From an uncultured Microthrixaceae bacterium (GTDB taxonomy: Bacteria > Actinomycetota > Acidimicrobiia > Acidimicrobiales > VFJN01), in contig CAVRKU010000030.1 of the NCBI GenBank assembly GCA_963721695.1, forward strand, positions 192,762 to 256,761: a stretch of 64,000 nt of DNA, written 5' to 3'. Positions within the stretch are counted from its first letter, which is position 1. Each line of letters starts with the position of its first letter. Shown here piece by piece: positions 1,012 through 60,420 of the stretch. A program made the translations under genes and the position numbers. Below the pieces are notes generated by a model. It made no database searches, had not been told where the DNA came from, and saw only the letters and a program-made list of their open reading frames with translations.

Positions 1012-2690
1012 GTGAGACTCAAGCGCAAGGGCCTGCAGCTCCTTGCTCTCTTCCTCGGGCTCTCGCTCGTCGCCGCCGCGTGCGGTAGTGACGACGGGGA
1101 TTCGGGGAGCAGTGACACAACCGGAGGTGAGGCACCAACAGCGGCCGGAGGCGACTTCATCGACCTCGGCACGTTCGTGGGTGATCCGCCGGAGCACATC
1201 GACCCGGCGCTCAACTCCACGCTCGACGCCTACCAGGTGATCAACGCGATCTATGACGGTCTCACCGACATCGACGCATCCGATCCCGCCAACCCGCAGA
1301 TCGTGCCGCACGTTGCCGAGTCCTACGAGGCCAACGACGACGCGTCCGTGTGGACCTTCACGATCCGTGACGGCCAGACGTTCGCTGGGGGCGAGGAGAT
1401 CCTTCCGAGCACCTTCAAGGCGTCCTGGGAGCGGGCCGCCGCCCTCGCCGGCGACTACAGCTACCTCCTCACCTTCATCGAAGGTGGCGAGGAAGCCCTC
1501 GACCCGGCCAGTGACCACACCATCTCCGGTGTCGTCGCGGACGACGACGCCATGACCCTCGAGGTCACGCTCTCCGCCCCGTACTCGAACTTCCCCGCAG
1601 TCGCCGGCTTCCAGCTCTTCATGCCGGTGCCCGCCGAAGCGATCGAGGCCGGAGCCGAGTGGGAGAACGGCGTCATGTTCGGCAACGGCCCCTACAAGAT
1701 GGAGAGGCCCGCACCGACCAGCTCATCAAGCGTCGTGAAGAGCGACGAGTGGACCGGCGACTACAACCAGGACACCTGGGACAGCCGCCTCGACACGATC
1801 GAGTTCCGCACGACGGCCGACCCGGACACCTCGTACAACGCGTTCGAGGCCGGCGAGGGCAACAACGCGAACATCCCGCCCGCGCGGGTCGCTGACGCCC
1901 AGGCTGCCTACGGGAACACCCTCGACGTCTCCATCCTCGGGTCCTACCACTGGGTGCTCGAACACCGAGGAAGGCCCCCTCGCAGGCGAGGAGAACCTGA
2001 AGCTCCGCCAGGCCATCTCGGCGGCCGATCAACCGCGAGGAGATCAACGAGGCTGTGTACAGCAACAGCCGCACGAACTCCACCGGTGTCACCCCCGAGG
2101 GCATCCCCGGCTTCCAGGCCGACCTGTGCGAGTACTGCACGTACGACGCGGAGCAGGCGCAGACGTTGTTCGACGAGTGGAAGGCGGAGGGCAACTCGCT
2201 CACCGAGCCCATCCCGCTCCAGTTCAACGCTGATGCCGGCCACGAGCCCGTTGCGGCGATCGTGGTCGACAACCTCGCTGCCATCGGCATCGAGGCCGTC
2301 GCCCAGCCGATGAACGGAGAGACCTACTTCTCCGATCTCGCGGCTGGTGGCTGCATCGCCATGTGCCGGGCCGGTTGGTTCGCCGACTACCCGACGTACG
2401 ACAACTTCATGTTCGACTTGTTCCACACCGACTCCATCGGTGGCAACAACCTCGGACCGTTCTCCAACGAGGAGTTCGACAGCCTCGTTGCGGAGGGCAA
2501 GGAGACCGTTGACCCCGATGATCAGGCCGCCCTGTTCCAGGATGCGGAGAAGATCCTCCTCAACGAGGACACCGGCGTCGTCCCGATGAACTGGTACCTG
2601 GGCGACTACGTCTACAGCGACGACATCGCCAACTTCCCGCAGACCAACTTCGGTCTGATCCTGTGGGAGCAGGTGGCATTCGCCGAGTGA
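1012..2690 (+). pseudogene. ABC transporter substrate-binding lipoprotein (family 5, peptide/nickel type), reading frame broken twice
   Basis: The N-terminus has a lipoprotein signal (LALFLGLSLVAAACGSDDG). The family-5 SBP body continues through three frames: 1012 frame to about 1960, the NTEEGPLAGEENLKLRQAISAA segment from 1961 to 2026, then INREEINEAVYSNS... from 2028 to the stop at 2690. Both breaks are net +1. Confidence 0.8.
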
Positions 2691-2713
2691 CCCACCTTCA
2701 CTGAGGTGAATAT

Positions 2714-2743
2714 GGTCGGGGGGCGCTGAGGCGCCCCCCGACC
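2714..2743 (+). terminator. perfect 13-bp GC-rich hairpin (GGTCGGGGGGCGC tgag GCGCCCCCCGACC) between the binding-protein and permease genes; likely an intra-operon attenuator or terminator
   Basis: The inverted repeat was read directly from the sequence. It lies 24 nt after the SBP stop and 21 nt before the permease start. No clear U-tract follows. Confidence 0.55.
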
Positions 2744-2763
2744 GTCCTCCGGAGACAGCTCAC

Positions 2764-3772
2764 ATGACCGCATACATCACCCGCCGTGTCCTGCTGATCA
2801 TCCCGACTGTCTTCTTCGCGCTCTCGTTCCTCTTCATCGCTCTTCTTCACGCTCCCGGGCGACCCGGCGAACCTCATCGCCGGCGGCGCCAACCGGGTCC
2901 CCGACCCGATCCAGGTCGAGCAGATCAACGAGCGCTACGGCTTCAACGACCCGTTGATCGTGCAGTTCAAGAACTACTGGTCGTCCGTGCTCCACTGGGA
3001 CCTCGGCGAGTCGTTCCAGACCGGCCGCAGCGTCAACGACATCCTCAACGAGCGCACCGTGAACAGCCTGCGGCTGGCGTTCTGGGCGATCCTCATCGAG
3101 ATCGTCGTCGGCATCTCGGTGGGCATCCTGTCCGCCATCCGTCGGTATTCGATGTCCGATCGGCTCACCACGATCGTCACCGCCGCGGCATCGGCGGTGC
3201 CCGTCTTCGTGCTGGGCTTCATCCTCCAGTACATCTTCGCGGTCGTCCCCAACAAGCAGGGATGGCCCGAGTGGATGGCCCTGCGGACCTCGCAGCTCGG
3301 TCCCGACACCTGGGCCTTCTTCTTCATCCCGACCGGGGAGCAGTGGCGCTACCTGCTGCTGCCGGCGATCACGCTGGCCGCCGTGTCCACCGCTCTCGCC
3401 GCTCGCATGACCCGTGGCTCGATGCTCGAGGTGATGCGCGCCGACTACATGCGGACGGCCCGGGCCAAGGGCCTGGGTGAGCGATCGATCGTCACCCGGC
3501 ACGGGCTTCGCAACGCGATGCTCCCCGTGATCACGCTCATCGGCATCGACTTCGGCACGGTGATCGGTGCCGCGGTGCTCACCGAGACCGTCTTCTCCTG
3601 GCCGGGCCTCGGCTCCGCGATCGCCGACTCCGTGATCGACCGGGATCTGCCGATCACCCTCGGCCTCACGCTGGCCGTCGTCATCGCCTACTCCATTATC
3701 AACCTCCTGGTCGACCTGTCGTACGCTTGGTTCGACCCGCGCATCCGCCTGGGCCAAGGGAGCGAAGCATGA
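2764..3772 (+). pseudogene. ABC transporter permease (DppB/OppB-like), one frame break near 2841
   Basis: The N-terminus MTAYITRRVLLIIPTVFFALSFLFIA continues in the next frame as FFTLPGDPANLIAGGANRVPDPIQVEQINERYGFNDPLIVQF..., which merges with ORF 2954-3772. This is a typical BPD transport permease with an EAA-like region. Confidence 0.8.
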
Positions 3773-9413: not shown

Positions 9414-11650
9414 TCAGCGGTGGGCGTCGCCGAGCCAGGGGTCGCGCTTGAGCTCGGGTTGGCAGGCGCGCAACGGATGACGCTTCGGGTCGAGCCACAC
9501 GTCGGTGTCCCAGGGCTCGAAGGCGTTGGACACGTTGCCGAGGCCCGTCGCCGCCAGCTCGGGGAGGTGGCGGAGGATGACCGTCTTGAGGCTGGCGTCG
9601 TCGACCCACTGCATGCCCTCCTCCGTGTACACCTCCGGGCGGTAGTCGTCGGTGTAGAAGCGGTCGGCCTGGAGGCGACGGCTGGCGTTGAGGATGAAGA
9701 TCTGGAACATCGTCTCGCCGAAGCCGAAGTTGGTCGGGCGCTGGGTCTCCGCGAGGGTCCCGATCAGGAGGTCGAGGTTCTCGACGTTGTCGCCGTAGAC
9801 CTCGGCCAGGGTGGCCACCGTGCCCTTGTCGTCGGTGAGATCGGCGAACGAGCGGATCGGGTTCAGGCCGAGCTGGCGACGGAACTCGTTGTAGCGGGGC
9901 ACGCCGCGCTCCCGGGCCCGCACGAGGTCGACTGCCCCCATGTCGAAGACCGGGTTGCCGGGGATGCTCAGCTCCTGCATGAACCGCGGGTAGTTGTTGA
10001 GCACGAGCTGGCCGGGGTGCTGGTTGCCGAACGAGAAGAAGAGGTCGGTCATCCCCACCTGGGCGGTGACCTTCGGCGAGCCGGCCTGCCGGCTGGCGAC
10101 GAACGGCAGGTCCTCGATGGCGGCGCCGGTGTCGTGGCGGCGCAGGTGGAGCTCCTCTGGAAGGAGCGAGTGCAGCCGGTAGACCTCGACGAACTCCTCG
10201 GCCAGCCCGAAGGGCTTGCCGTGCTTGTTGATGTGGTTGCCCACCAGCCCGCCGAGCTCCGGGTTGGCGACGTTGAACTCGGCGACCGTCTTGCGGCGCC
10301 CCGGCTTGCGGAACTTGTACGTGAGCATGCCGTACCAGTTGGCGTTGAGCCCGAGCGCCAGGCCGGGGTTCGGGAGGATCGCCGGCGTCCACTCGATGGA
10401 GTGGATCTTCGCCATGACCGCGGCGTTGACGAGGCGGGCGACGTTGAAGAGCCGGTTGTCGTCCCAGTCCGGGTAGGAGCGCTTCAGGTGATCGCAGATG
10501 GCGTTGTGCTCGCGGGCGAAGAGCGTGTGCAGCATCGCGACGCCGACCCACCAGTTGCGGGTCATCCCGCTGTCCTCGACACCGTTCGTCGCCCGAGCGG
10601 GAGGGTGCCGTCGTCGGTGAGGCGGAGGTGGCCGTCGACGCCGCTCCGCAGGCGGTCCTGGGTGGCCTGGTCGCTGCCGTAGAGCTGCGAGCCGTCCCAC
10701 CAGTGGGTGACCTCGTTGATGTGGGTCACGGGCGTCGGCTCGCCGACCTCTCGACGGGTCGGGTCGGGCTGGGTCCGGCCGATGAACATCCGCTCCTGAC
10801 CGAAGCGCAGCCGGGCGGGATCGTCCTCCTCGAGGGGGATCTCGATGACCTCCTCCTGGAGCATCTCGCCGTGGGTGATCCAGTCGCTGTTCTGGAACTG
10901 GATCCACGACGCCGCGAGGAGGTTCAGGAACGGGACCTCCTGCATGGTCTCGCCCCGGGTGAGCAGCTTCCGGCTGATCAGGCGCGGGTCCGGTGTCAGC
11001 ACCTCCTCGTCGGTCGGACGCCGGATGGCGGAGCTGGCGACGTTGCGCGGGAAGCGGGTGCCGGCCGCACCTTCCTTCGGGTTGGCCAGGTTGTTCCACG
11101 AGCCATCGGCGGTGCGGAAGTGGGTCACGCCCTCCGGCGGCGTGAGGCCCGACGGTGCGAAGCCGACGTTGACGTCCGGGGGATAGGTCGACTTGAGGTT
11201 GTGGCGATCGAGGTGCTCCCGCATGTACGCGAGCGTGAGGATGCCGGGGTAGAGCGGCTTGCGGTACCAGCTCGTCCACACGCGACCTCGGTAGCTCCGG
11301 CCCACGACGTGCATGAGCGACTCGAACACCGTGCCGCCGAGGTTCCCGACCGCGTGCCCGACCCAGTAGCGGAGCTGGCGCCAATGGGGATCGCCGGGGA
11401 GGTTCCGCGGGCTGGGGAGCGTTGGCTGCGGTGGTGGCGCCAGCAGCTCGTCGGCGTCGAAGAAGCGCAGCTCGGGGACGAACACGTCGACCTCGGCGGT
11501 GGCGTTGGCCGAGGCCTTGGCGAGGAGATCGGTCAAGTCCGGGTTGCCAGGGTCGAGGGCCAGCGCGCGCTCGAAGTGCTCCGCGGCCTCCGCGTAGCGC
11601 TCCTCGCGGAAGAGGGACAGCGCGAGGTCGGCTTCACTCGTGCCTGGCAT
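9414..11650 (-). pseudogene. animal-type heme peroxidase / cyclooxygenase-like dioxygenase family protein, one frame break near 10593
   Basis: The N-terminal part lies in ORF 10562-11668 (FRTADGSWNNL, FLNLLAASWIQFQNSDW, THWWDGSQLYG). The C-terminal part lies in ORF 9414-11384 (NWWVGVAMLHTLFAREHNAICD, IHSIEWTPAIL, VRARERGVPRYNEFRR, FGFGETMFQIF). The two segments join at ...DDGTLPLG / ATNGVEDSG with a net -1 shift. Confidence 0.85.
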
Positions 11651-11694
11651 CGGCGGCGAACGTAGCACCGGGTCTGGGAACTACCGTCGGCGCG

Positions 11695-13209
11695 GTGATC
11701 GGGTTCTTCTGGCGAGTGCGCCGCGCGTTCTGGAACGGCCTCGCCGTCCTCAAGTTCCGGGGCCAGAAGCCGGAGGTGATCCCGCCCGGCGGCGCGGATG
11801 CTCGCCCCGTCCGTCTCGTCCCCTTCGTCACCCGGTACCCGGACATCCCTCTCGATGGCACCGTGGTCGCCGACCGCATCCCCACTGACGAGGCCGACAC
11901 CCCGAAGCGGCTGTTCACCCGCCTGCAGCACAAGCTCGTGCGCTGGTTCTCGCCCATGCAGGACGGCGTGCCACCGATCGCGCCGGACGCGGTCGAAGGC
12001 GCTGATGCACGCCTACACGCCGGCCCACCGGGCGTGCTTCCCCACACCCGAGCGGACGCCGGGGCACGACCTCGGCGCCATGGCCGTGGCCAGCCCCTAC
12101 GCCAGCTACCTCCAGGCCACCGGGGAGGGGGCGTACCGGTGGGACCTGCAGGTCCTGAACGGGTTCGAGTGCCACCCGGGGCTGGTCGAGCTGGGGGCCG
12201 TGGTCGACTTCCGCCTCGACGCCGCGACGAGCGCGCTCGCACCCGTGCGCATCGAGACGGCCCTGGGGGTCGAGAAGCCGGACTCGGCCGGGTGGGAGGC
12301 CGCGGCGCGGATGGCGATGTGCTCGATCACGTCGCACGCGTCGATGGTCCGCCACTTCAACTGGCTGCACCTCACCGGCGGACCGGTGTTCGAGGCCGTC
12401 ACCCGCAACCACCTCCCGGCCGACCACCCGGTGCGTCGCCTGGTGTGGGCCCACGTGTTCGGCACGCACGGTGGCAACGACCTCGTCACCGAGATCCTCA
12501 TGTCGGAGGGCGGCGAGTTCGACGCGATCTTCAGCCTCACGCACCGCGGGAAGTGCCAGCTCTTCGAAGCGACCGCGGGCGACTTCGACCTGGCCGCCAT
12601 CAACCCGTTGACCGACCTGGTGCGTCGCGGCCTCGCCGGCAGCGGCGTGCCCACCCCGGCTCACGAGAACTGGAGCGGCCTCTACGGCGTGTTCCTCGAC
12701 CACGCCCATCGGTACCTCGGGCTGTACTACGCGTCCGACGACGACCTCGCGAACGACCAGGCGCTCGGCGCATGGATCGACGACCTCGACGCCCGGCTGC
12801 CGCACGGGGTGCGGACCGTCCTGGGCCCGGCCACGACGCTCGACGGGGTGGCCTCGCTCGCTGGCGACGATCGTCTACCTGGCCACCGTCGAGCACGAGA
12901 TCACCGGCAGTGGGCTCTGGGACTACCAGCTGTGGAGCGACACCTCGCCGGTGCGCGTGTACGAGGACGGCCGCCGTCTCCCGGTCGGACGTGTACCAGC
13001 GGCTGGTGAACGCCAACTTCAACCTGAACGTGCCCCGCACGATGCTCCTCGACGACGCGATGCCCGGCCTGGCCGTCGACCCCGCCGGCGCGTGGGCGTT
13101 CCAGGAGCTCCAGCAGGACCTCCTGGGGTTCCAGGCCAAGCTCGACACCACCGCGCCGGCGCCGTGGCGCATGGAGCCTCGGCGCCTCAAGGCCAACATC
13201 AACGCGTAG
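11695..13209 (+). pseudogene. lipoxygenase-like non-heme iron protein (catalytic-domain-only size), three frame breaks; start tentative
   Basis: Four co-linear segments are present. Breaks lie near 11997, 12868 and 12986, and all are +1. LOX-like motifs are HFNWLH (H-x4-H), RNHLPADHPVRRLVWAHVFGT (compare HP-x3-LL-x-PH), TVEHEITGSGLWDY (compare HAAVNFGQYDY), and the C-terminal ...RLKANINA. Confidence 0.55.
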
Positions 13210-15566: not shown

Positions 15567-16755
15567 ATGGCTGACGACGTCTCGCCCCGGCTGATCGACC
15601 AGATCATCGACGGGATGGCGGTCGACTTCCCCGACCACCAGCCGGGCACCCGCCCGATCCACACCAAGGGGATCGCGGTGGCCGGCCAGTTCCGGGCCAC
15701 GCGCGATGCCAAGGAGTACTGCGTCGCTCCGCAGTTCGACGGGAGCTGGACTCCGGCCATCGTGCGGTTCTCGAACGGCAACGGCCAGCCGGACCCCGAC
15801 GGACGCCTCCAGCCGCGCGGGATGGCCGTGAAGCTGTACCCCGGCGGCACCCGATCGCCGGGTCCGGGCACGGAGCACCAGGATCAGGCCACCGTCGCCG
15901 GGTCGCGGGTGGAGGAGCAGCCGATCGTGCCGGCGACGCCGGGGGGACAGGTCCAGGAGACCGACCTCATCTGCATGTCGGTGCCGGTCTTCATGGCGCA
16001 GAGTGCCGAGGGCGTCCTCGAGTTCGAGAAGGCGTACGTGCCCCGCAAGGTGCGGCCGCCCAGCCTTCCTCAAGCGCCTCGGCGCCCTCGCCCGCATGAG
16101 CCCGCTCCCGCCTCAGGAGGCGGGGGTCTCGATGTCGGGGAACGAGGGCTTCCTCGAGTGGGCAAGGGGCTTCGAGCCGGCCCAGGGGTTCCTGCTCGAG
16201 CTCTCGCTCGAGCGGCTGCCGGCGAGCTACGCGCGCACCGTGTACAACGCGGTGCACGCCTTCGAGGTCGAGGGCGCGGACGGCACCCGTCGCATGGTGC
16301 GGTTCACGTTCGAGCCGTCCGACGGCGTCCGCAACGAAGGACCGCCCGAGGCCGCCCAGTCACCGATCGCCTCGTTCCTCAAGCCCCACCCGGTCAACGA
16401 GTACGGACAGACGCTCCCTCCCGACTACCTCCAAGATGAGCTCCGCCAGCGCATCAGCTACGCCCCGAGCCGCTTCAACCTCCGCATGCAGATCGCCGAT
16501 CCCTGGGACGACACCGCTGATCCCACCAAGGCATGGCCCACCACCCGGCGGCGCGTCCTCATGGGCACCCTCTTCCTGTCCCACGTGCTCACCGACCAGG
16601 TGGGCGGTTGCGAGGAGCTGAGCTTCAACCCCGGTCGGCTCCTGCCGGGGATGGCGCCGTCCGACGATCCGGTCCTGCGCCAGCGAGTGGCGGTGTACGA
16701 GGAGTCGTACCGGCGGCGGATGGAGGCGCGACGTCAGGGCTGCCCGGTCAGCTGA
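15567..16755 (+). pseudogene. small catalase-related hemoprotein (catalase-like peroxidase family), one frame break near 16055
   Basis: The N-terminal segment reads RPIHTKGIAVAGQFRA...VRFSNGNG...RGMAVKL. The C-terminal segment (ORF 16003 frame) reads YNAVHAFEVEG...RMVRFTFEP...LSFNPGRLLPGMAPSDDPVLRQRVAVYEESYRRR. The break is net +1. Confidence 0.8.
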
Positions 16756-19401: not shown

Positions 19402-19539
19402 GCGTCAGGTTCGCACACCTGGTCAGGAGGGCCGGGCTTCGAGCCACTTCTGGGCGGCGGCCCGGCCGTTCTCGAAGAGGTGATCCTGGGCCTCTCGGGT
19501 GATGGAGAAGTCGGTCGCCTTGTAGCCGGTGCGTGCGGC

Positions 19540-29718: not shown

Positions 29719-29766
29719 CGCCCCGCCGATACGCCTCAGCCGGCACAGGCGCTCCTCGAAGAGGCG

Positions 29767-41146: not shown

Positions 41147-41409
41147 TTGAGGAGCTCCTTGGATGGTGGGGCGCCACCAGGCCCGCAAGCGCGAACCGGC
41201 AGCACGTGCTGACGTGCTGAAGGGCCGGGTTCGCTGTAGCTCCTCGCCGACAAAGCGACCAGTTCAGTCGGCGGATCAGTGCTTCCCTTCGGGGAGCGAG
41301 TATCCCGGTTGCGAGCGGCGCCCCGCATGAGTCGCACGGCCCAAAACGGACGGATCGTGCCGTCACCACCACTGTGGGCGTCTGGAGCGCCGACGGCAGG
41401 AACGGGAGC

Positions 41410-43476: not shown

Positions 43477-43936
43477 GTGCCACGTAGGGACCAGGCGTCG
43501 CGGGTGATCGCGTCGCCGCTCGAGCGGGTCTACGCCGCCCTCGTCGATCCCGAGGCGCTGGTGGCCTGGCTGCCTCCGGACGGGATGCGTGGCCGGTTCG
43601 AGCGCTTCGACGCCAGGCCCGGCGGGTCCTACCGGATGGTCCTGACCTACGCCGACGCATCGGCCGCTCCGGGCAAGGCCACCCCGGACTCCGACATCGT
43701 CGAAGGCCGGTTCGTCGAGATCGTGCCCGGTGCGCGGGTGGTGCAATCGGTGGACTTCGTCTCCGACGACCCCGCCTACGCCGGCACCATGACCATGACC
43801 TGGGAGGTCACCGCGGTCGATGGGGGGACGCGCGTCGACATCCGAGCTGACGATGTCCCGGACGGGATCTCCGCGGACGACCACGCGGCCGGACTCGCCT
43901 CGTCGTCTGGCGAACCTCGCCGCCCACCTCGAGTAG
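43477..43936 (+). pseudogene. SRPBCC / AHSA1-like domain protein, frame break near 43904 close to the C-terminus
   Basis: The sequence reads SRVIASPLERVYAALVDPEALVAWLPP...GGSYRMVL...MTWEV. After an extra T, the natural-looking end GLASSLANLAAHLE-stop lies in the next frame. Confidence 0.7.
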
Positions 43937-43983
43937 CGCGGCGGGCGATCCGGGGTGTCACACGCCGGACGTAGGGTGACCCT

Positions 43984-46900: not shown

Positions 46901-48225
46901 TCGTCGAGGGTGTGGACGTCGACGGGAGCACCGCCGAGCAGGCGGCAGCCCAGGTGCTGCGCGGGCACCTGGAGGTGGCCTCTCCGCTGACGCACGGAGC
47001 GCTGGTCGGGCGCACCGGCCTCCCATCGGGCCGTGTCACCGTCGCTCTTGCCACCCTCGAGGCGGAGGGCTTCGCCATCCAGGGGCGCTTCAGCGAGCGG
47101 GCGGTCGACGCCGGAGACGACCCGGCCTCGGTCGAGTGGTCGAGCCGTCGCCTCCTCACCCGCATCCACGCCTACTCGCGCGCCCAGCGACGCCGGCGGG
47201 TCGAACCGATCACCGCCGAGCAGCTCATGCGCTTCCTGGCGCAGTGGCAGCACGTCACCGGCGCGACCCAGCACCGTGGCGTCGAGGGGGTGGCACGGGT
47301 CATCGGGCAGCTGCAGGGCTACGAGACCGCGGTCGGGGCCTGGGAGTCAGAGGTCCTGGCCCGCCGAGTGCGCGACTACGAGCCCGCCTGGCTCGACCGC
47401 CTCTGCCACCAGGGGGAGGTCACGTGGCTGCGGCTCCGACCCCCGTCGCCGGACGATCCGGATCGACGCCTCGCGGGCGCCACCCGCACCACCCCGGTGT
47501 CGCTCGTGCTCCGCGCCGACCTGCCGTGGCTGCTCGCGGCGCACCGCGGCGAGACGTCTCCGCCGGTGCCGGCCTGCGGGGCGGTGGCCGAGGTGGTCGA
47601 GGTGCTCACGGACAAGGGTGCGTGCTTCGCCAGCGAGCTGGCGCGAGCCACCGGCCGCGTCCTGGCGGACGTGGAGGCCGCGCTGTGGGAGGGCATGGCG
47701 CGCGGCTTGCTGGTCTCGGACGGGTTCGAGCCCGTACGGGCCATCGCCTCGGGTCGCCGGCATGCGTCGTCCAGCGCACCCCGACGAGCCCGGTTGCGGT
47801 CCGGCGGCTTGCGAGCCACGGAGACGGCGGGGAGGTGGTCCCTCGTGCCCGCCGCGGCGACCGACATCGATCGGGAGGAGCTGGCTGAGGCGCTGGCGGA
47901 CCAGCTCCTGGAGCGATGGGGTGTCGTGTTCTACGACCTCGTGGCCGCCGAACATCCGGCCGTGCGCTGGCGAGACCTCCAGTGGGCGCTGCGCCGCATG
48001 GAGGACCGTGGGCTGGTCGCCGGCGGCCGGTTCGTGCGGGGCTTCACCGGCGAGCAGTTCGCGCTGCCGCAGGCGGCCGAGGCCCTGCAGGCCATCCGCC
48101 GTGCCGACCCGACGGGGCGCAGCGTGCGCCTGTCCGGCACCGATCCGCTCAACCTCACGGGCGTGGTGCTCCCCGGCGAGCGGGTCCCGGCCCGTTCCAC
48201 CGAGTGGGTCGACCTACCGGTCTGA
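43984..48225 (+). pseudogene. lhr: Lhr-family ATP-dependent DEAD/DEAH-box helicase (about 1400 aa), two frame breaks in the N-terminal motor domain
   Basis: Motor-domain motifs are TPAQEAAWPPIAAG / (T)LVAAPTGSGKTLAGF, VIVDEIHAL and GLSATQ. The 3.4-kb segment 44815-48225 is intact and contains VAAHHGSLSKDRR and ATASLELGIDIG. Breaks lie near 44165 (-1) and 44790 (+1). Confidence 0.9.
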
Positions 48226-52000: not shown

Positions 52001-52058
52001 CGGTTCCCCCCGGTCCCAGCGAACGGGGCGACGATACGCGCCCCAAGCCGAGCGCGCT

Positions 52059-55000
52059 CTATGTGCCCCCGTCCAGGACGAAGCGGGCGTCGCGTTCGAC
52101 GTAGCCGTACCCGCGTTCGGTCGCGATCGGTAGGGCCAGGCCGGCGAGCAGTCGCGCTCGCCTTGCGTCGTCGTGCTGGTTGCGATGAGCGAGTAGGTGC
52201 GCGAACGCGACCTGCGTCCACGCCACGAAGAACGGTGCCTCCATCGCTTCGTGGAGCGCGAGCGCCTGCTCGAACCACGCCTCGGCCTCGTCGTGCCGTT
52301 CGAGGCAGTGGCTCAGAAGACCGAGGTAGTGCGCAATCCCGCCGTGGACCGAGATGTGGGTGGTTGCGAACTGGTCATGCCAAGGCAAGAGACGGCGATA
52401 CAAGAGTGATGCTGCCGGTCGATGGCTCGTGCGGGCGGCGGCCTCGGCCCAGAGGGCCTGGGCCGCGAGCCACACCGAGTCAGGGAACATCGGGAAGTCC
52501 GCCGCGAGCTCGGCGTCGAGGAGCGGAGCCGCCCGCTCGGGGGAGTCGCCGAGGCTTGTGACGAAGGCAGCCGTCACCCGAAAGATGTCGAGCCCAGGGC
52601 CCATCGGCGGTGGCTGGCTCAGCGATCGCGACCGTCCGTTGAGGCGACCTTGCATGTAGCGGAGGCTCATGAGCTGGAAGCGATAGATCGTGAGGGCATC
52701 GTCGGGCTGTCCGGCCGCGGTGCCGAGGGCCAGTCCCTCTGTTGCGGCCTGTTGCGCGGCGTCGAGGTCACCCTCGAGCGCTTGTTGCCACGCGCCGTGG
52801 TAAGCGATCTGCCACCGGTTCCACGGCTGTCCGATCCGCTCGGAGACCGAGTCGAAGATCGAGCGCGCCTCGTTCATCGTGGCTACATCGCCTGCTTCCA
52901 ACGCCGCGTACATCCGGTAGTCGTTCGCATGGAGGACGGCAGTCGGGTCGCCGACACCGTCCGCGAGCGGCGCATGCCTCGGCGATCCAGCGACGGCGCC
53001 GCTCGAGCGTCTGCGGCATGGTGATCGACTCGTGGCTGTGTCGGATCGCGTCGACGAACGCGGCATCGTCGTGCAGACGCCGAGCGATGTCCACAGCCTC
53101 CGTCGCCATGGCCAGACGTTCGTCGAACCCGCACTCCCAGGTGACCTCCACGCACAGGAGCGCGAGCAATCGGGCCCGGTCGGCGCGGTCCGTGTCACCG
53201 AGTCGGACGAGGGCGCGCCTGAGCATGAGGACCCGGTCGTGATCGACCCCGCCCACGATGCTGTTCCACCCTCGGTTGTTCCGCAGGGCGGCGCCGACGA
53301 GGACATCGATCGCGCCGATCTCGTCGGCGAGCTGTCCTGCCGCGAACAACGTCTCGCGGTGCGCGGGGTCGCCGATCTGGCGCTGCGCATCCCCGAACCC
53401 GAGCAGGAGCGCTGCTCGACGCGTCGGGTCGTCGGTGCGCGGACCGGTCCAGCAGCTCGAGCGCATCGCGGTACCACCGCAGCGCGTCGTCAGGGGCGAG
53501 CTTCGCGAGCGCTCGATCGCCCGCCCGCTGTGCGTAGGTGACCGCCTGGCTCACGTCCGGTGGCTGGCTGGCGTGCCCCCAGTGGTAGGCGAGCTCCCCG
53601 ATCCGATCGCCAGGATCGTCGCCACAGATCGCTTCCAGGGCCTCGGCGATCGCCCGGTGGGCGCGCCCCCGCCGAGCGTGCCGAGAGACGGTCGTAGAGC
53701 GCGTGCTCGATGAGCGTGTGCCTGAACACGTAGCGCCCCGCCATCTCCCCTTCGGCGAGCAGTGAGGCGAGGACGGCTTGATCGCACAGGTCGCCCAGGT
53801 CGTCCTCGTCGATGCCTGCGACCACGGCGAGGAGGCTGGCGTCGAACTCCCGACCGATGACGGCGGCCAGCGACAGCACACCTTCAGTTGGCGCACCCAG
53901 GCGAGCGACCCGTTGGCGGATCACGTCGCGGATGCTGACCGGCAGGTCGAGTCAGCGTCAGCTCAGCGCTTGTGACTCCATCGACCGTGCTGGTCCTGAC
54001 GGATCGTCTGTGTCTCGGCCAGGTGCCGCAGCAGCTCGCCGACGAAGAAGGGATTGCCATCGGTCTCGGCCGACAGCGTGTCCGAAGGGCAAGACCGTTC
54101 TCGTGCAGAGGTTTGACCGGAAGACGGTTTCGAGCAGGGTGACGAGCTCCTCATCGCTGAGGCCGCGCAGCGTGAGTCGCTCGATCCCCGGTTCCCGGTG
54201 CATCGCCGCGAGCTCTGCCAGCAAGAGGGTGGTCGGGCTCGACGTCGGATTCCCGGAACGTTCCGATCACGAGCAGGCGGAGCGATGCGTCCGTAGACGA
54301 TGACGTGACGTAGGAGCTGGAGCGTCGGGGGATCGGCCCAATGCAGATCGTCGAGCACGAGGACGAGGGGCGTAAGTACCGAGACCCGCTCCAACAGGTC
54401 CACAACTGCGCCGAACAGCAGGTAGCGGTCCGCCTCGGTGTCGACGGACGGACTGCGGTCGGCGGTGACTCGGTGAGCGAGACTGGGGACGAGTCGCGCC
54501 AGCTCACTGCCTCGTGCGCCGACGTGCGCGGCGATCACCTCTTGGGGCGCGTGGCCAACGACGTGGGCGAGGGCATCGACCCAGGGCTGATAGGGGATCC
54601 CCAGGTCTTCATCGCAGCGTCCGTACAGCACGGCGGCACCTTCGGTCGCCGCCGCGGGCGAAGGCCCCGGCCAGGGACGTCTTGCCGATCCCAGGCTCGC
54701 CGAGACAGCAGCACGACACGCCGCTGCCCGGACGCGGCGGCCCTCAGCGACCGCTGGAGGCCGTGGAGCTCAGGCTCTCTCCCGACGAACAACGCCGACG
54801 GTGCCTCCCGCATGCGGCGGGGGAGCGGGATCGTGAGCTCGCCAAGGAGCTCGTCGCCTTCGGCGGCCCGAGGGGCCTCGGGTGAATCCAGGATCGGGTC
54901 GTTGGCGAGCACGGCAGCCTCGAGCCGGCGCAGCTCCCGGCCTGGCTCCATGCCCAGCTCCCCGACGAGCATCTCGCGTGCTCGCTGAAAGGCGCGCACC

Positions 55001-55637
55001 GAGTCGGCCTGCCGGCCCGAGCGGTACAGCGCGAGCATCAGGGATGCCCACAGCCGCTCGCGATACGGGTGCTGGGTGAGCAACGACTCGAGCTCGCCGA
55101 CGGCCGCACCGTGCTGCCCGAGCATCAGGCCAGCGTCGATCCTGTCCTCGACCGTCGAGAGCCGCAGGTCGTCGAGTCGATGCGCCTCGGCACTCGCCCA
55201 ACCCCCTGCGCGACAGTCGACGAGGGCATCGCCCCGCCAGAGCCCCAGGGCGTCGTTGAGCTCAGCCATCGCCAGCGCGGCATCGCCCGCCGACGAGCGC
55301 TTCTCTGCCCGCAGCAGCATGGAGTCTCGAACCTCGCGACATCGGTGCCACCAGGGGGGCTGGACAGCACGTAGCCGGGAGCTCGCGTGGCCAGGACCTC
55401 CGCCAGCCCGGCCGCATCGAGGGCCTTCCGCACCCTCGCCACGTAGCCCTGCATCGTCTTCACGGCCGTCGCGGGCGGATCGTCACCCCACAGCGCATCC
55501 ACCAGCGCGTCGCGTGACACCACCTCGTCGGCGCGCAGGGCGAGGAGGGCCAGCACCAGACGTTCCTTCGCGCCACCGATTCGGACCTGCCCGTTTGGCC
55601 CCGTGACGTCCAGCGGGCCCAGGAGGCTGACCTTCAC
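52059..55637 (-). pseudogene. AfsR/SARP-type large regulator (wHTH - BTAD - P-loop NTPase - TPR), about 11 frame breaks
   Basis: The N-terminal part reads MKVSLLGPLDVTG...VSRDALVDALWGDD. The BTAD part reads LGLWRGDAL...HPYRERLWASLMLALYRSGRQADSVRAF. The P-loop is GEPGIGKTSL, followed by LVLDDLHWAD and TDGNPFFVGELL. The TPR-like C-terminus ends at 52059. The segments are spread over all three frames. Confidence 0.75.
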
Positions 55638-55743
55638 GCGCGCAGCCTAGGTGGGGCCCGCGACCGCCACACCACCGCCGCACCACCGCGCCCGTGCACG
55701 CTCACACCGCACGGCTCGCGCCAGATCCGAGAGGGATGTGACC

Positions 55744-57247
55744 ATGTCTGACTCGTACAACATGTCGAGGCGAACGATGCTCGCGGGGGGCGTCGGCATG
55801 GCGGCGCTACCTCGCCGGCTGCCGGTCGGGTCCGGAGCTCCGACGTCGGAGCGTGCGGCGACGGAAGGAACGCTGCCGCCGCCGACGGTGCCCAGTCGCC
55901 GCCCGTCGCCGAACCCGTACCTGTCCAACAACTACGCGCCCGTCGACACCGAGGTCAGCCGGCTCCGCCTCCCGATCGAGGGGAGCATCCCTTGGCGAGC
56001 TCGAGGGCACGCTGCTGCGCAACGGTCCGAACCCGATCGCACCCGATCCCGCGACCTACCACTGGTTCGTTGGTGACGGGATGGTGCACGCGATCGATCT
56101 ACGCGATGGCGAGGCCAGCTACCGGAACCGCTGGGTTCGCACCGACGACGCAACGGAGCTGCTCCATGAGGAGCCGGATCCCCGCGAGCTCAGCCCGCCG
56201 ATCAGTCGGCGTTGCCCGAACCGCGCGAACACGAGCATCGTCTCGCACGCGGGCAGGATCCTGGCGCTGAACGAGGTGGCGCTGCCCACCGAGATCGATG
56301 TGAAGGCGAAGACGCTCGGCCGCTACGACTTCGCTGGCGCGTTGCGTACGTCCGATGACCGCCCATCCCAAGATCGACCCGGTGACCGGCGAGATGCTGT
56401 TCTTCGGGTACGACATCTTCGGACCGCCATTCGTGCGCTTCCACATCGTGGACCGCGGCGGCCACCTCGTCCTCTCGAAGGACATCGCGATCCCTGGCCG
56501 ATCGATGATGCACGACTTTGCGATCACCGAGCGCCACGTCGTGTTCCTTGACCTGCCGGTCGTCTACGACCTCAGCCCTGAGCGGCACGCGGCCGCTGCT
56601 CGCCCTTTGGACACCCGAGTACGGCGCTCGCATCGGGGTCATGCCCCGAGACGGAAGCGTGGACCCACGGTGGTTCGAGGTGGAGCCGTGCTACATCTTC
56701 CACACCGTCAACGCCTACGACGACGGCGACACGGTGGTGTTGGACGTCGGTGCGGCACGAGGAGATGTTCTCGGATGATCTCTACGGCGTCGCCGACGGC
56801 ACCGGAACGCTCGACCGGTGGACGATCGATCTGGGAGCCGGGCGGGTCCGGGAGGAGCGGATCGACGATCGCACCCAGGAGTTCCCCCGCGTAGACCCGC
56901 GAATCGTCGGCCGCCGTCATCGGTATGCGTATACGACCGAGGCGCACCTGGACGACTTCACGGCACCACTGGGAACCCTGATGCAGCACGACCTGAGGTC
57001 CGGCACCGTCACGGCGGCCAAGCTCGGGGCGGGCAGACAGGCCGGTGAGGGAGTCTTCGTGCCCAGCAGCTCGACGGCCGCCGAGGACGAGGGATGGGTG
57101 CTCGCGGTCGTGTACAACGCGGTGGAGGACAGCAGCGATCTGGTGATCTTGGACACCACGAGCTTCGGCGGCGACCCGGTTGCGACGATCCGGCTTCCCC
57201 AGCGCGTTCCGTTCGGGTTCCACGGCATCTGGGTGCCGCGCCGGTAG
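55744..57247 (+). pseudogene. carotenoid/stilbene cleavage oxygenase (RPE65/CCD family) with a Tat-type signal, four frame breaks
   Basis: The N-terminus is MSDSYNMSRRTMLAGGVGMAAL. CCD motifs are NPYLSNNYAPV, GTLLRNGPNP, HWFVGDGMVHAI, TAHPKIDPVTGEM, MMHDFAITERHVVF, CYIFHTVNAYD and VPFGFHGIW. The frames run 1,2,0,1,2, so all four breaks are +1, near 55990, 56350, 56590 and 56760. Confidence 0.8.
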
Positions 57248-57267
57248 GGCTCCACCCCGCCGGACGC

Positions 57268-58286: not shown

Positions 58287-58356
58287 CTACCACCGATGCC
58301 ATCGTCGAAACCCGCGCGAATCGATCGGCGCCGATCGAACGCTCGGCGCATGCGCG

Positions 58357-59922
58357 CTAGTGCTTGGCTTGGTCACGTAGGACGCGACGCAGGATCTTGC
58401 CCGACGGGGACTTCGGGATCTCATCGACGAACGTGAGCTTGCGGATCTGCTTGTAGCTCGCGACCTGGTCCGCGACGAAGCGTTGGATGTCGGCGGCAGT
58501 GGTGTCCTGCCCCGCCTTGCGCACGACGTACGCGGCCGGGATCTCCCCGGCCTCGTCATCGGGGAGGCCGATCACGGCGGCATCCGCGATCTGGGGATGG
58601 GTGAGCAGCAGAGCCTCGAGCTCGGCGGGGGGCACCTGGAAGCCCTTGTACTTGATGAGCTCCTTCAGGCGGTCGACCACGAACAGGTGCCCGTCGGCGT
58701 CCAGGTGGCCGATGTCACCGGTGTGCAGCCACCCGTCGGCGTCGATCGTGCTCTTCGTCGCGGCCTCGTTGTTCAGGTATCCCTTCATGACCTGTGGCCC
58801 CCGGATCCAGACCTCGCCGTCCTGATCGAGGCCGAGCGAGGCCTGCGTCGCGGGGTCGACGATGTTGACCTCTGTGTTCGGCACCGTGACCCCGGCCGAA
58901 CCGGGCTTGAACTGGCCCGGCGGCGTGGCGTGGCTCACCGGAGACAGCTCGGTCATGCCGTATCCCTGCACCACCTCGCAGCCGAGCCGTTGGCCGCACT
59001 CGATCGCGAGCTCGGCGGACAGCGGGGCGGCGCCCGAGAGGATCCACTCCAACGCGGAGAGATCGAACTGGTCGACCAGGGGATGCTTCGCCAGTGCGAC
59101 GACCATCGGGGGCGCCACGAACGCCCTCGTGAGGCTGTGCTCCTGATGCAGCCGTAGGAACTGCTCGAGATCGAAGCGTGGCATCGTGACGATCGTGGCG
59201 CCGGCCCGCAGGCCCAGGTTCATGAGCACCTGCATGCCGTAGATGTGGAAGAACGGCAGCACCGCCACGAAGGCCGCCTCCTCGTTCAACGGGATGGCGG
59301 CGAGCGACTGCTCGATGTTCGCGACGAGGTTGCGGTGCGTGAGCATCACGCCCTTGGACAGCCCGGTCGTGCCCGAGGAGTAGGGGAGCACGACGACGTC
59401 GTCGAGGTCGACGGGGACCTGGTCCGCGAGCGGCGGGCCCTCAACCGACGAGATCGACGTGTAGCCGTCGGCATCGCCGATGACGAACACCTCCGTCACG
59501 GGCGAGTCTGCGATCGCCGCGGTGACCGTCTCGAGGAACATCGGGACGGTGATGAGGCGTGTCGCGCCGGAGTCGACGAGCTGGTGGTGGACCTCGCCCG
59601 GCGTGTACGTGGGGTTGACCGTGGTGAGCACACCGCCCGCCAGGGCGACGGCGTGGAAGATGACCCCGTACTCGGGACAGTTGGGCGCCATCACGGCGAT
59701 GACCTCGCCCTTCGCGAGCCCACGCTCGAGCCAGCCCGCGGCCTGACCGCGGATGGCGGCTTGGAGCTCGCCGTAGGTCATCGTCCGCCCGGTGGCCCCG
59801 TCGATGAACGCGGGCCTGGCGGACCGCTGGTCGGCGTGCTCCAGGACGTACGGCGCCAGAGGCAACGTAGGCAGGCTGACCGACGGCAGTGGACTGGCGA
59901 ACGACAACGTCCCACCCCTCAC
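58357..59922 (-). CDS. AMP-dependent acyl/aryl-CoA ligase (4-coumarate-CoA ligase-like / FadD-like)
   Basis: Motifs are LPYSSGTTGLSKGVMLTHRN, QGYGMTE, GWLHTGDIG and SPSGKILRR. An alternative TTG start lies at 59907. Confidence 0.9.
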   Translation of the reverse strand: MRGGTLSFASPLPSVSLPTLPLAPYVLEHADQRSARPAFIDGATGRTMTYGELQAAIRGQAAGWLERGLAKGEVIAVMAPNCPEYGVIFHAVALAGGVLTTVNPTYTPGEVHHQLVDSGATRLITVPMFLETVTAAIADSPVTEVFVIGDADGYTSISSVEGPPLADQVPVDLDDVVVLPYSSGTTGLSKGVMLTHRNLVANIEQSLAAIPLNEEAAFVAVLPFFHIYGMQVLMNLGLRAGATIVTMPRFDLEQFLRLHQEHSLTRAFVAPPMVVALAKHPLVDQFDLSALEWILSGAAPLSAELAIECGQRLGCEVVQGYGMTELSPVSHATPPGQFKPGSAGVTVPNTEVNIVDPATQASLGLDQDGEVWIRGPQVMKGYLNNEAATKSTIDADGWLHTGDIGHLDADGHLFVVDRLKELIKYKGFQVPPAELEALLLTHPQIADAAVIGLPDDEAGEIPAAYVVRKAGQDTTAADIQRFVADQVASYKQIRKLTFVDEIPKSPSGKILRRVLRDQAKH

Positions 59923-59981
59923 GATGCTGGCAACCGGACCGGGCGAGTCTGGCCTCTTTCGGCTGCCCGCGCACGCGGCGC

Positions 59982-60420
59982 TCAGCCGAGGGAGGAGGCG
60001 CGCCGGTCCAGCTCCCGAAGGCGGGCGGTCTGGATCAGCAGCAGCCGCTTCGACATGGCTGGCACGTCGTCGAGCAGCTTCTGGAACGCCGTGCGGTAGA
60101 GCTCGATCGCCTCGACCTCGGTCTCGGCGATCACCGAGGCCGAGGTCGTGTGGCCGTCGATGATCGACATCTCACCGATCGCATCACCAGCTCGAACGGT
60201 GGCGATCGTGCGCCCGTTCCTGACGACCCGCGCCGTCGCCCGACAGCATCGTGACCATCCGCTGGCCGTAGTCGTTCTCCCGGACGATCACGTCGCCTGG
60301 CTCGAAGTGCTGCTCGAAGCACGCCTTCGCCACGGCGTTGAGCTGCCGGCGCGTGAGGCCGCGGAACAGCGCGCTCTGCTCGAGCACCGAGATGAGCTCC
60401 GATCGAGTCCGGTTGGCCAT
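59982..60420 (-). pseudogene. stand-alone cyclic-nucleotide-binding domain protein, one frame break near 60232
   Basis: The sequence reads LFRGLTRRQLNAVAKACFEQHFEPGDVIVRENDYG. After an extra G it continues as VVRNGRTIATVRAGDAIGEMSIIDGHTTSASVIA. No HTH domain follows. Confidence 0.75.

What the first reader, a model, noticed from the sequence alone, without database searches (positions are those of the whole stretch)
1012..60420. About 50 reading-frame breaks in conserved genes, strongly biased to net +1
I followed recognisable homologous protein text from ORF to ORF and compared coordinate phase (mod 3) at each hop.
- Plus-strand genes show 32 frame changes: 29 are +1 and 3 are -1.
- Minus-strand genes show about 20 changes: about 16 insertion-type and 4 deletion-type.

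Affected genes include housekeeping-type functions: ABC binding protein and permease, Lhr, dihydropyrimidinase and the PLP enzyme. Natural bacterial gene decay is deletion-biased and rarely hits dozens of neighbouring genes. An 87% single-base-insertion signature therefore points to assembly or consensus indel error. The contexts I inspected are not all homopolymers, for example tcgtcg(t)ctgg at 43904. A missing t also occurs inside an otherwise exact repeat at 40369.
Basis: seen in the sequence. Interest (0 to 1): 0.6.

Follow-up and report, generated by a model that had tools for sequence, protein, structure and literature searches.

The report
Single-base insertion errors in assembly
About 55 one-base slips, 50 of them extra bases, break some twenty otherwise healthy genes in this stretch, and nearly all are consensus mistakes of this particular assembly rather than real gene decay, so it is an ordinary data-quality problem.

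Summary
My catalogue holds 50 one-base insertions and 5 one-base deletions in about 20 genes (binomial p about 1e-10). The insertion bias is stronger than reported, because several "-1" hops are really two nearby +1 insertions.

The interpretation as assembly or consensus error is supported.
- **Repair:** removing one base per break restores full-length, co-linear matches to Pfam domains and intact homologs, with no in-frame stops.
- **Selection:** differences from relatives stay concentrated at third codon positions downstream of the breaks.
- **Private to this assembly:** four sister assemblies (92-99% identical to the window, by region; contigs named contig_N, up to 631 kb) lack 22 of the 26 breaks they cover.
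- **Sisters err too:** each sister carries its own private one-base insertions, which fragment other genes.
- **Short-read copies:** versions of the same proteins from short-read assemblies are full length.

Breaks are 6 times denser in three segments that the sisters lack. The insertions are mostly G or C, rarely extend a homopolymer, and form CpG 59% of the time. That is a pipeline signature.

Four breaks shared with sisters could be real alleles or recurrent errors. Biological interest is low.

The parts
1012..2690 (+). Peptide/nickel ABC substrate-binding protein (SBP_bac_5). Events: -1 at 1703, +1 at 1728 (a compensating pair), +1 at 1961, +1 at 2027.
   Evidence: Pfam single stretch 1-365/368 on the repaired protein. 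Sisters A, C and D all differ from the window at 1703 and 1728. The extra base at 1961 is absent in C and D. The extra base at 2027 is absent in C. Both 1961 and 2027 are shared with sister A, and 2027 also with D.
2764..3772 (+). ABC permease, +1 at 2839 (ATC[G]CTC).
   Evidence: BPD_transp_1_N stretch spans the junction. The extra base is absent in sisters A, C and D.
9414..11668 (-). TPR + animal-haem-peroxidase protein, with two +1 insertions at 10589 and 10595.
   Evidence: An_peroxidase 1-522/530 in one stretch. Frameshift-aware alignment gives +2 nt against five homologs. Both extra bases are absent in sisters A and C.
11631..13209 (+). Lipoxygenase-like protein, +1 at 11996, 12861 and 12988.
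   Evidence: Weak lipoxygenase match (E = 1.2e-5, 24.5 bits against a cut-off of 23.6) whose stretch spans 12861. The extra bases are absent in sister C, and 11996 is also absent in A. C encodes an intact 501-aa protein.
15567..16755 (+). Catalase-related protein, +1 at 16063.
   Evidence: Two co-linear catalase stretches. The extra G is absent in sister C, which encodes an intact 395-aa protein.
16734..19401 (-). Adenylate cyclase / NB-ARC / TPR regulator, +1 at 17494.
   Evidence: Frame path. The extra T is absent in sister C.
19605..20940 (-). Class V aminotransferase, +1 at about 19858 and +1 at 20753.
   Evidence: Aminotran_5 2-371/371 in one stretch. The extra C at 20753 is absent in JGI contig L005. 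The break at 19858 rests on Pfam and the frame path only.
21594..24780 (+). AAA / BTAD regulator with about 13 insertions: 21931, 22033, 22101, 22287, 22525, 22962, about 23218, about 23740, about 23775, about 23930, about 23962, about 24474, about 24574. The N-terminal stretch 21646-21688 is unresolved.
   Evidence: The first six are single extra bases relative to L005 (90% nt). AAA_22 and BTAD stretches span junctions. The rest come from the frame path and reading of the frames.
25150..25420 (-). DUF2630 protein, -1 at about 25242 (GGG to GG).
   Evidence: DUF2630 1-80/80 on the repaired protein. Frames read.
27013..29720 (+). Adenylate cyclase / NB-ARC regulator, +1 at about 28281 and -1 at about 29360.
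   Evidence: NB-ARC stretch spans 28281. The paralog alignment with the 16734-19401 gene spans it too. The break at 29360 comes from reading the frames.
35247..36660 (+). Dihydropyrimidinase, +1 at 36183-36187.
   Evidence: 97% identical to intact 471-aa orthologs. It is the single gap against L004. It is absent in L052 and in sisters A and B.
37732..39307 (-). Pyr_redox_2-methyltransferase fusion, +1 at about 38757, shared with both sisters.
   Evidence: Pyr_redox_2 2-289/291 spans the junction. Frames. There is no gap against A or B at this site.
39385..39972 (+). XRE-cupin regulator, +1 at 39721 (CCC[G]ACC).
   Evidence: The extra base is absent in sisters A and B. A encodes an intact 195-aa protein.
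40060..41130 (-). LPXTG-anchored protein with 7 x 66-nt repeats, -1 at 40370.
   Evidence: TRF array 40327-40786. The LPXTG tail is in frame only after repair. The other repeat units carry the T.
41393..41920 (-). Gene of 174 aa that is intact in the sisters, +1 at 41513. A further private extra base lies at 41314.
   Evidence: The extra bases are absent in A and B. Both sisters call a 174-aa gene here.
43477..43940 (+). AHSA1/SRPBCC protein, +1 at 43905.
   Evidence: AHSA1 2-124/125 spans the junction. The extra base is absent in A and B.
43984..48225 (+). Lhr helicase, -1 at 44159 (G5 to G4) and +1 at 44781.
   Evidence: Frameshift-aware alignment to three intact 1417-aa JGI orthologs (91% identity) gives exactly these two events. 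At 44159 both sisters have one more base. The extra base at 44781 is absent in B but shared with A.
52071..55637 (-). SARP-family regulator (BTAD + ATPase + TPR) with 12 insertions: about 55322, 55291, 54702, 54653, 54298, 54219, 54116, 53977, 53949, 53678, 53437, 52968.
   Evidence: Frameshift-aware alignment to 1182-1185-aa homologs covers residues 1-1182. The repaired protein is 1183 aa with 0 stops.
55780..57247 (+). Carotenoid cleavage oxygenase (RPE65) with 4 insertions: about 55993-56011, 56351, 56574, 56749.
   Evidence: RPE65 1-469/469 in one stretch. One stretch 1-441 against 502-aa P0509. Frameshift-aware alignment gives four +1 events.
59987..60420 (-). cNMP-binding protein, +1 at 60237.
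   Evidence: cNMP_binding stretch spans the junction. The extra base is absent in A and B.
19536..24869 (.). Segment absent from sister assemblies A and B (island 1); the most error-dense part of the window.
   Evidence: Alignment break points. Event density.
26930..29760 (.). Segment absent from sisters A and B (island 2).
   Evidence: Alignment break points.
52052..57261 (.). Segment absent from sisters A and B (island 3; SARP regulator + oxygenase), with 16 insertions in 5.2 kb.
   Evidence: Alignment break points. Gene tables.

Best explanation
The frame breaks are consensus errors of the assembly this window comes from, not lesions in the organism's DNA.

**Source (inferred).** The source is a 278,711-bp contig of a 70% G+C Acidimicrobiia genome reconstructed from a metagenome. 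It was probably assembled from error-prone long reads without short-read polishing. That last point is an inference.

**Shown.**
- An extra base, usually G or C and often forming a CpG, was written into the consensus about once per 2.4 kb on average.
- The rate rises to about once per 0.4 kb in three segments that sister populations lack.
- Gene callers then split each affected gene into fragments.

**Inferred mechanism for the clustering.** The dense segments had lower or more heterogeneous read support. They are carried by only part of a mixed population, so the consensus and polishing step had less evidence to suppress spurious insertions.

A few breaks shared with sister assemblies may be recurrent context-specific errors or real alleles.
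For: 1. **Repairability.** Deleting one base per break gives full-length co-linear proteins.
   - Pfam single stretches span the junctions.
   - Dihydropyrimidinase is 97% identical to intact 471-aa orthologs.
   - The SARP regulator covers residues 1-1182 of its homologs after 12 one-base skips and has 0 stops.
   - Lhr against 1417-aa orthologs shows exactly two events.
   - The oxygenase aligns in one stretch and shows four +1 events.
2. **Private to this assembly.**
   - The window's proteins are exact members of a collection entry on a 278,711-bp NCBI+ENA contig.
   - Sister contigs from four other ENA assemblies (ERZ25039504, ERZ25039494, ERZ25039591, ERZ25039536), 92-99% identical to the window by region, lack 22 of the 26 window breaks they cover.
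3. **The sisters have the same problem at other sites.**
   - In 28.7 kb of three-way alignment, private one-base insertions number W 10, A 13 and B 19. Private deletions number 4, 2 and 12.
   - Their gene tables show split Lhr, SBP, thioesterase and other genes.
   - At 38052 two sisters carry an extra base of different identity (T and G) at the same site, while the window's frame is intact.
4. **Assembly type, not lineage.** In the 90% protein clusters, most members on long ENA contigs are truncated, while JGI and Logan members, all on contigs of 19 kb or less, are full length except a few on 1-kb contigs.
5. **No sign of decay.**
   - Differences from relatives are third-position dominated upstream and downstream of breaks. 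For dihydropyrimidinase downstream, 33 of 39 differences are at position 3. For the AAA/BTAD regulator, 62 of 99 are.
   - There are no in-frame stops after repair.
6. **Non-biological spectrum.**
   - 50 insertions against 5 deletions.
   - The 41 private insertions across the three assemblies are 85% G/C. Only 32% match a neighbouring base, against 51% expected (p = 0.01). CpG is formed by 59%, against 25% expected (p = 5e-6).
7. **Literature.**
   - Nanopore-only metagenome bins below about 40x coverage retain indels that fragment genes (PMC9262707).
   - A large Nanopore-only Flye + Medaka soil catalogue reports such errors at low coverage (PMC12313526).
   - The closest species-representative genome (L052, 92.7% nt) belongs to that catalogue, and it carries its own extra base in the dihydropyrimidinase gene.
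Against: - **Atypical spectrum.** The literature I read describes long-read consensus errors as deletion-rich and homopolymer-associated (PMC12007338; PMC9262707). Here insertions dominate and avoid homopolymers. The exact source of the errors (basecaller, assembler or polisher) is therefore not identified.
- **No metadata.** No reads, depth profile or assembly metadata could be seen.
- **Unlinked accessions.** A link between the ERZ25039xxx assemblies and any named project could not be made.
- **Shared breaks.** Four breaks are shared with sisters (1961, 2027, about 38757, 44781). Three of them follow the closer relationship of the window to sister A, as real inherited alleles would.
- **Thin evidence in the densest segments.** The segments with most breaks have no near-identical sister. 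Evidence there is a 90% relative for the first half of one gene, plus protein-level alignments.
- **No essential gene is broken,** so lethality cannot be used as an argument.
Confidence: 0.9

Rival explanations
1. Genuine, very recent mass pseudogenisation. The organism really carries about 55 one-base lesions, concentrated in accessory segments that are being lost. Sister populations have already deleted those segments.
For: - The densest clusters lie exactly in the three segments missing from the sister assemblies.
- All broken genes are accessory.
- Four breaks are shared with sisters in a pattern compatible with descent.
Against: - 22 of 26 testable breaks are private to this assembly.
- Each sister has a comparable load of its own private insertions in other genes, including core ones.
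- The spectrum is 91% insertions with a CpG-forming bias shared by all three assemblies. Natural bacterial decay is deletion-biased (established knowledge: Mira, Ochman and Moran 2001; not checked here).
- There are no nonsense mutations or larger lesions, and third-position-dominated divergence persists downstream of the breaks.
- Short-read copies are intact.
Confidence: 0.03
2. Mostly artefact, but the breaks shared between independent assemblies are real frameshift alleles segregating in this species. These are about 38757 in the flavoprotein-methyltransferase (all three assemblies), 44781 in Lhr, and 1961 and 2027 in the binding protein (window plus its closest sister).
For: - The window and sister A share 1961, 2027 and 44781, while sister B or C lacks them. 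All three assemblies share about 38757.
- The window and A are each other's closest relatives by private substitutions (W 134, A 200, B 363). The sharing therefore fits the phylogeny.
Against: - Recurrent errors at identical sites do occur in these assemblies. At 38052, A and B each have an extra base of different identity.
- More similar sequences share error-prone contexts.
- The Lhr portion downstream of 44781 is 91% identical to intact orthologs over 1147 residues with no further lesion.
Confidence: 0.2
3. The errors come from collapsing several co-occurring strains into one consensus (mixed-haplotype consensus) rather than from low depth.
For: - Several 97-99% identical populations exist across samples.
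- The islands are strain-variable.
- Collapsed alleles are known to create apparent frameshifts in another system (abstract of PMC8445201, listed).
Against: - Strain-specific segments should be the least mixed parts of the contig, yet they carry the most errors.
- A one-base insertion with a CpG bias is not an obvious product of merging substitution-level variants.
Confidence: 0.15
4. Programmed recoding: +1 ribosomal frameshifting, transcriptional slippage or RNA editing restores the frames in vivo.
For: Only the strong +1 direction of the breaks.
Against: - Orthologs and sister assemblies read straight through the same positions in one frame.
- I saw no shared sequence motif in the contexts listed, beyond a tendency to form CpG; no motif search was run.
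- The breaks occur in about 20 unrelated genes, up to 13 per gene.
Confidence: 0.005

Closest known systems
Gene-fragmenting indel errors in long-read (Nanopore or PacBio) assemblies and MAGs, as measured by IDEEL-type tests
   Same: One-base indels split genes into adjacent fragments. Repaired genes match full-length orthologs. The load varies between assemblies and is reported to rise at low coverage (PMC9262707, PMC12313526, PMC12007338). Sister assemblies from the same series show the same defect at different sites.
   Different: Published profiles stress homopolymer-associated errors, often with more deletions than insertions. Here 91% are insertions. They avoid homopolymers (32% against 51% expected) and form CpG 59% of the time. 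They are 6 times denser in strain-specific segments.
Reductive-evolution pseudogene landscapes (for example Mycobacterium leprae or recently host-restricted bacteria)
   Same: Many neighbouring genes are interrupted by frameshifts.
   Different: There are no nonsense mutations or large deletions, no relaxed selection, and the indel bias is the opposite. Most lesions are absent from independent assemblies of the same population.
Programmed +1 ribosomal frameshifting (for example prfB)
   Same: The net +1 direction.
   Different: The position is not conserved in orthologs, there is no slippery or stop-codon context, and there are up to 13 events in one gene.

Membership tests
Assembly/consensus indel artefact | Removing or adding a single base restores a full-length protein co-linear with orthologs. 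| tested here: met
   Pfam single stretches; homolog coverage; frameshift-aware alignments.
Assembly/consensus indel artefact | Lesions are absent from independent assemblies of the same or a very close population. | tested here: met
   22 of the 26 breaks covered by relatives are private to the window. Four are shared.
Assembly/consensus indel artefact | Assemblies of the same kind carry their own, different lesions, while short-read assemblies do not. | tested here: met
   Private insertions W 10, A 13, B 19 in 28.7 kb. Gene tables. Truncated members on long ENA contigs against full-length JGI and Logan members.
Assembly/consensus indel artefact | No evolutionary trace of inactivation (no stops, and purifying selection downstream of the break). 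| tested here: met
   Codon-position counts and 0 stops.
Assembly/consensus indel artefact | Errors fall at sites of poor read support or low depth. | not testable with these tools
   No reads or depth are available. The only indirect hint is the 6-fold enrichment in strain-specific segments.
Typical Nanopore/PacBio consensus error profile | Indels associated with homopolymers, with deletions at least as common as insertions. | tested here: not met
   13 of 41 insertions match a neighbouring base against 51% expected. The window has 50 insertions and 5 deletions. Literature profile.
Genuine mass pseudogenisation | Lesions shared by independent samples of the lineage. | tested here: not met
   Only 4 of 26 are shared.
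Genuine mass pseudogenisation | Mixed lesion types (nonsense, deletions) with deletion bias and relaxed selection. | tested here: not met
   0 in-frame stops, 91% insertions, third-position-dominated divergence.
Programmed +1 frameshifting | The frameshift site and its motif are conserved in orthologs. | tested here: not met
   Orthologs and sisters are in a single frame at the sites. No common motif was seen in the contexts listed.

The most novel reading that the evidence does not exclude
The extra bases are real. On this reading an insertion-biased, CpG-forming mutational process (for example an error-prone polymerase or targeted hypermutation) is acting right now in these soil Acidimicrobiia populations. 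It would be hitting strain-specific segments hardest, and each sampled population would carry its own fresh set of +1 lesions.
Probability: 0.02. Interest if true: 0.7.

Novelty: not a real feature. Interest (0 to 1): 0.1.

Why it matters
Biologically it does not matter: the genes are almost certainly intact in the organism.

Practically it does.
- **Annotation.** About 20 genes in 64 kb would be annotated as fragments or pseudogenes. Affected functions include a helicase, transport genes, an oxylipin-type enzyme cluster, and regulators.
- **False contrast.** The strain-specific accessory segments are hit 6 times harder. That could be misread as decaying islands or inflate pseudogene counts in pangenome work.
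- **Tool tuning.** The signature is one-base G/C insertions that avoid homopolymers and form CpG, and it recurs across sister assemblies. It could help tune polishing or frameshift-correction tools for high-G+C metagenome bins.

Tried and rejected
- **All inserted bases are T (idea).** Rejected. Closer sisters show the dihydropyrimidinase extra base is a G in a GG run, and other insertions are mostly G or C.
- **High local G+C drives the clusters.** Rejected. Only one of the three dense segments is unusually G+C rich (0.76). The other two are 0.69, against 0.705 elsewhere.
- **Homopolymer slippage as the cause.** Rejected for the insertions. It does fit three of the five deletions.
- **Large concatenated protein queries.** A 3.6-kaa concatenated query timed out. 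A 1.6-kaa concatenation returned only peroxidase homologs.
- **Cyclase homologs.** They were too distant to test the 17494 and 28281 breaks. Sister C and a paralog alignment were used instead.
- **Naming the source.**
  - Exact look-ups of window proteins returned the sisters but never the 278,711-bp source record.
  - A plasmid megablast was irrelevant.
  - An exact 32-mer scan of species-representative genomes found only relatives at 92.7% identity or less.
- **Tying the ERZ25039xxx assemblies to a named project.** This failed. No supplementary text was held, there were no literature hits, and L085 matches none of the fetched genome loci closely.
- **N-terminal 21646-21688 of the AAA/BTAD regulator.** It differs from L005 by a net -22 nt. 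I could not resolve it into discrete events.

Full report
**1. What is in the window.**
The window is 70% G+C. It encodes typical actinobacterial genes. Its closest species-representative genome is an uncultured Microthrixaceae (Acidimicrobiia) MAG, at 92.7% nt identity over 3.3 kb.

A frame-path model based on codon-position G+C shows many same-strand frame switches inside recognisable genes. In plus-strand coordinates nearly all intragenic switches are +1 on both strands. That corresponds to one extra base.

**2. The pieces belong together.**
I joined the pieces at the predicted junctions and scanned the repaired proteins against Pfam. Single uninterrupted stretches cross the junctions:

| Family | Profile positions covered |
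|---|---|
| SBP_bac_5 | 1-365/368 |
| BPD_transp_1_N | spans junction |
| An_peroxidase | 1-522/530 |
| Aminotran_5 | 2-371/371 |
| NB-ARC | spans junction |
| Pyr_redox_2 | 2-289/291 |
| RPE65 | 1-469/469 |
| AHSA1 | spans junction |
| DUF2630 | 1-80/80 |
| cNMP_binding, DEAD, BTAD, AAA_22 | span junctions |

Homologs agree:
- The repaired dihydropyrimidinase is 97% identical over its whole length to intact 471-aa proteins.
- The repaired SARP regulator covers 100% of 1182-1190-aa homologs.
- The repaired oxygenase aligns in one stretch to 442-513-aa homologs.

I wrote a frameshift-aware protein-to-DNA aligner. It gives these results:
- SARP regulator: 12 one-base skips and no deletion.
- Oxygenase: four one-base skips.
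- Peroxidase: +2 nt.
- Lhr: exactly one deletion (44159) and one insertion (44781), against three intact 1417-aa orthologs at 91% identity.

**3. DNA-level comparison with relatives.**
- A 94%-identical JGI contig (L004) aligns to the dihydropyrimidinase region with a single gap, which is an extra base in the window.
- A 90%-identical JGI contig (L005) aligns over 20469-23083. Inside coding DNA, seven gaps are each one extra base in the window: 20753, 21931, 22033, 22101, 22287, 22525 and 22962. One further gap pair, at about 21470, cancels out. Multi-base indels occur only around the poorly conserved N-terminus of the regulator.

**4. The source and its sisters.**
Exact look-ups show that the window's proteins are on record on a 278,711-bp NCBI+ENA contig. 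The record itself was never returned.

Identical or clustered proteins led to sister contigs from other ENA assemblies:

| Sister | ENA assembly and contig | Length | Loci |
|---|---|---|---|
| A | ERZ25039504 contig_104929 | 243,772 bp | L075, L077, L079 |
| B | ERZ25039494 contig_2141 | 263,189 bp | L076, L078 |
| C | ERZ25039591 contig_22314 | 631,284 bp | L080 |
| D | ERZ25039536 contig_166629 | 13,594 bp | L081 |

 A and B are about 98% identical to the window. C is 97.9% identical over 9.4-17.6 kb and 92% elsewhere. D is 95.5% identical.

Against these sisters, the following window breaks are private one-base insertions: 1728, 2839, 10589, 10595, 11996, 12861, 12988, 16063, 17494, 36183, 39721, 41513, 43905 and 60237. 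Positions 1703 and 44159 are private deletions.

The sisters are just as damaged, but at other sites:
- In 28.7 kb of three-way alignment, private one-base insertions number 10 (window), 13 (A) and 19 (B). Private deletions number 4, 2 and 12.
- Their gene tables show split Lhr, binding protein, thioesterase, membrane protein and flavoprotein genes.
- At 38052, A and B each have an extra base of different identity, while the window's methyltransferase domain reads through. This is a recurrent error site.
- In the 90% protein clusters, most members on long ENA contigs are truncated. JGI and Logan members, all on contigs of 19 kb or less, are full length except a few on 1-kb contigs.
- The species-representative relative L052 also carries its own extra base in the dihydropyrimidinase gene.

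**5. Tally.**
My catalogue has 50 insertions and 5 deletions.

The bias is stronger because some '-1' hops are two nearby +1 events:
- 55322/55291.
- 10589/10595.
- Probably 23740/23775 and 23930/23962.

Three of the five deletions sit in short G or C runs (44159, about 25242, about 29360). The deletion at 40370 removes a T between G's in the last 66-nt repeat of an LPXTG protein, and the one at 1703 lies in GGAGGAGG.

**6. No evolutionary footprint.**
After the extra bases are removed, the window sequences have no in-frame stops. This holds for dihydropyrimidinase, 463 codons of the AAA/BTAD regulator, the 1183-aa SARP regulator, and the oxygenase.

Differences from relatives are concentrated at third codon positions, both upstream and downstream of the breaks. 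For dihydropyrimidinase, the counts at position 3 are 51 of 58 upstream and 33 of 39 downstream. For the AAA/BTAD regulator, 62 of 99 differences are at position 3. On an evolutionary scale the breaks are instantaneous.

**7. Clustering.**
The events are strongly clumped. The index of dispersion per 4 kb is 4.2 (p = 8e-8).

Sisters A and B lack three window segments: 19536-24869, 26930-29760 and 52052-57261. These segments carry 33 events in 13.4 kb (2.47 per kb), against 0.41 per kb elsewhere (p = 2e-10).

G+C content does not explain the difference. The three segments are 0.76, 0.69 and 0.69, against 0.705 elsewhere.

My inference, which I could not test, is that segments carried by only part of a mixed population had thinner read support.

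**8. Signature and technology.**
Across the three assemblies, the 41 private insertions have these properties:
- 85% are G or C.
- Only 32% match a neighbouring base, against 51% expected (p = 0.01).
- 59% form a CpG, against 25% expected (p = 5e-6).

A shared, non-random signature in independent assemblies points to the pipeline. It differs from the deletion-rich, homopolymer-centred profiles described for long-read assemblies. I therefore cannot say which step produces it.

Three facts suggest Nanopore-only Flye/Medaka-type assemblies, for which residual gene-fragmenting indels at low coverage are documented:
- The contigs are named contig_N.
- Metagenome contigs reach lengths of up to 631 kb among the sisters (over 1 Mb on related contigs in the cluster tables).
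- The nearest catalogue genome is a Nanopore MAG.

This remains an inference. I could not link the accessions to a project.

**9. Residual doubt.**
Four breaks are shared with sisters:
- 1961 and 2027 with A; 2027 also with D.
- 44781 with A but not B.
- About 38757 with both A and B.

They may be recurrent errors, as at 38052, or real alleles. Evidence in the densest segments rests on a 90% relative for part of one gene, plus protein-level alignments.

**10. Verdict.**
This is a known kind of artefact with a somewhat unusual error spectrum. It is not a biological feature.

Noticed in passing
window 9414-16755: Divergent cluster of a TPR + animal-haem-peroxidase, a lipoxygenase-like protein (weak Pfam match), a 542-aa protein that looks like a Dyp-type peroxidase by eye (not scanned), a 217-aa conserved hypothetical, and a catalase-related protein. 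Homologs elsewhere occur as single fused proteins (peroxidase + catalase, + lipoxygenase, + P450). This suggests one oxylipin-type pathway.
   Followed up: partly
window 52052-57261: A 5.2-kb segment (SARP regulator + carotenoid cleavage oxygenase) is precisely absent from sister assemblies A and B. In them the flanking membrane-protein and PAP2 genes abut, and in sister B they are called as one 718-aa product.
   Followed up: partly
window 19536-24869 and 26930-29760: Two further segments (aminotransferase, a 246-aa protein, the AAA/BTAD regulator, and a cyclase/NB-ARC regulator) are absent from sisters A and B. Sister A has a patatin-like gene at the first site.
   Followed up: partly
window 38052 (L075 about 11376; L076 about 11377): Both sister assemblies carry an extra base at the same site inside GCC-CCG, but with different identity (T and G), while the window reads through. 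This is a recurrent, context-specific error site.
   Followed up: partly
three-way alignment of window 29761-39799, 40905-52051 and 57262-64000: Private one-base insertions in all three assemblies form a CpG 59% of the time (25% expected) and avoid homopolymer extension. This looks like a pipeline-specific error signature. I did not find it described in the papers I read.
   Followed up: partly
window 40327-40786 (-): Seven tandem 66-nt units encode [22 protein letters not shown] repeats in a secreted protein. The protein ends in LPRTG, a hydrophobic stretch and a basic tail. Alignment with sister A breaks up in the repeat array, so copy number or unit sequence may differ.
   Followed up: partly
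L052 (GTDB representative MAG MFD04212.bin.2.38), equivalent to window 36498: This representative genome has its own extra base inside the dihydropyrimidinase gene, relative to the window. Neither the JGI contig L004 nor sisters A and B show a gap against the window at this site.
   Followed up: no
window 21646-21688: The N-terminal low-complexity part of the AAA/BTAD regulator differs from the 90% relative by a net -22 nt. The frame relation to the likely ATG at 21594 is unresolved.
   Followed up: partly
window 1-8760: A five-gene peptide ABC transporter operon sits between tpiA and secG, which are usually adjacent in the gap-pgk-tpiA-secG block. The sisters share this arrangement.
   Followed up: no
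window 41093-41966: This stretch looked non-coding to the composition model. It holds a 174-aa minus-strand gene that is intact in both sisters and broken in the window at 41513.
   Followed up: partly
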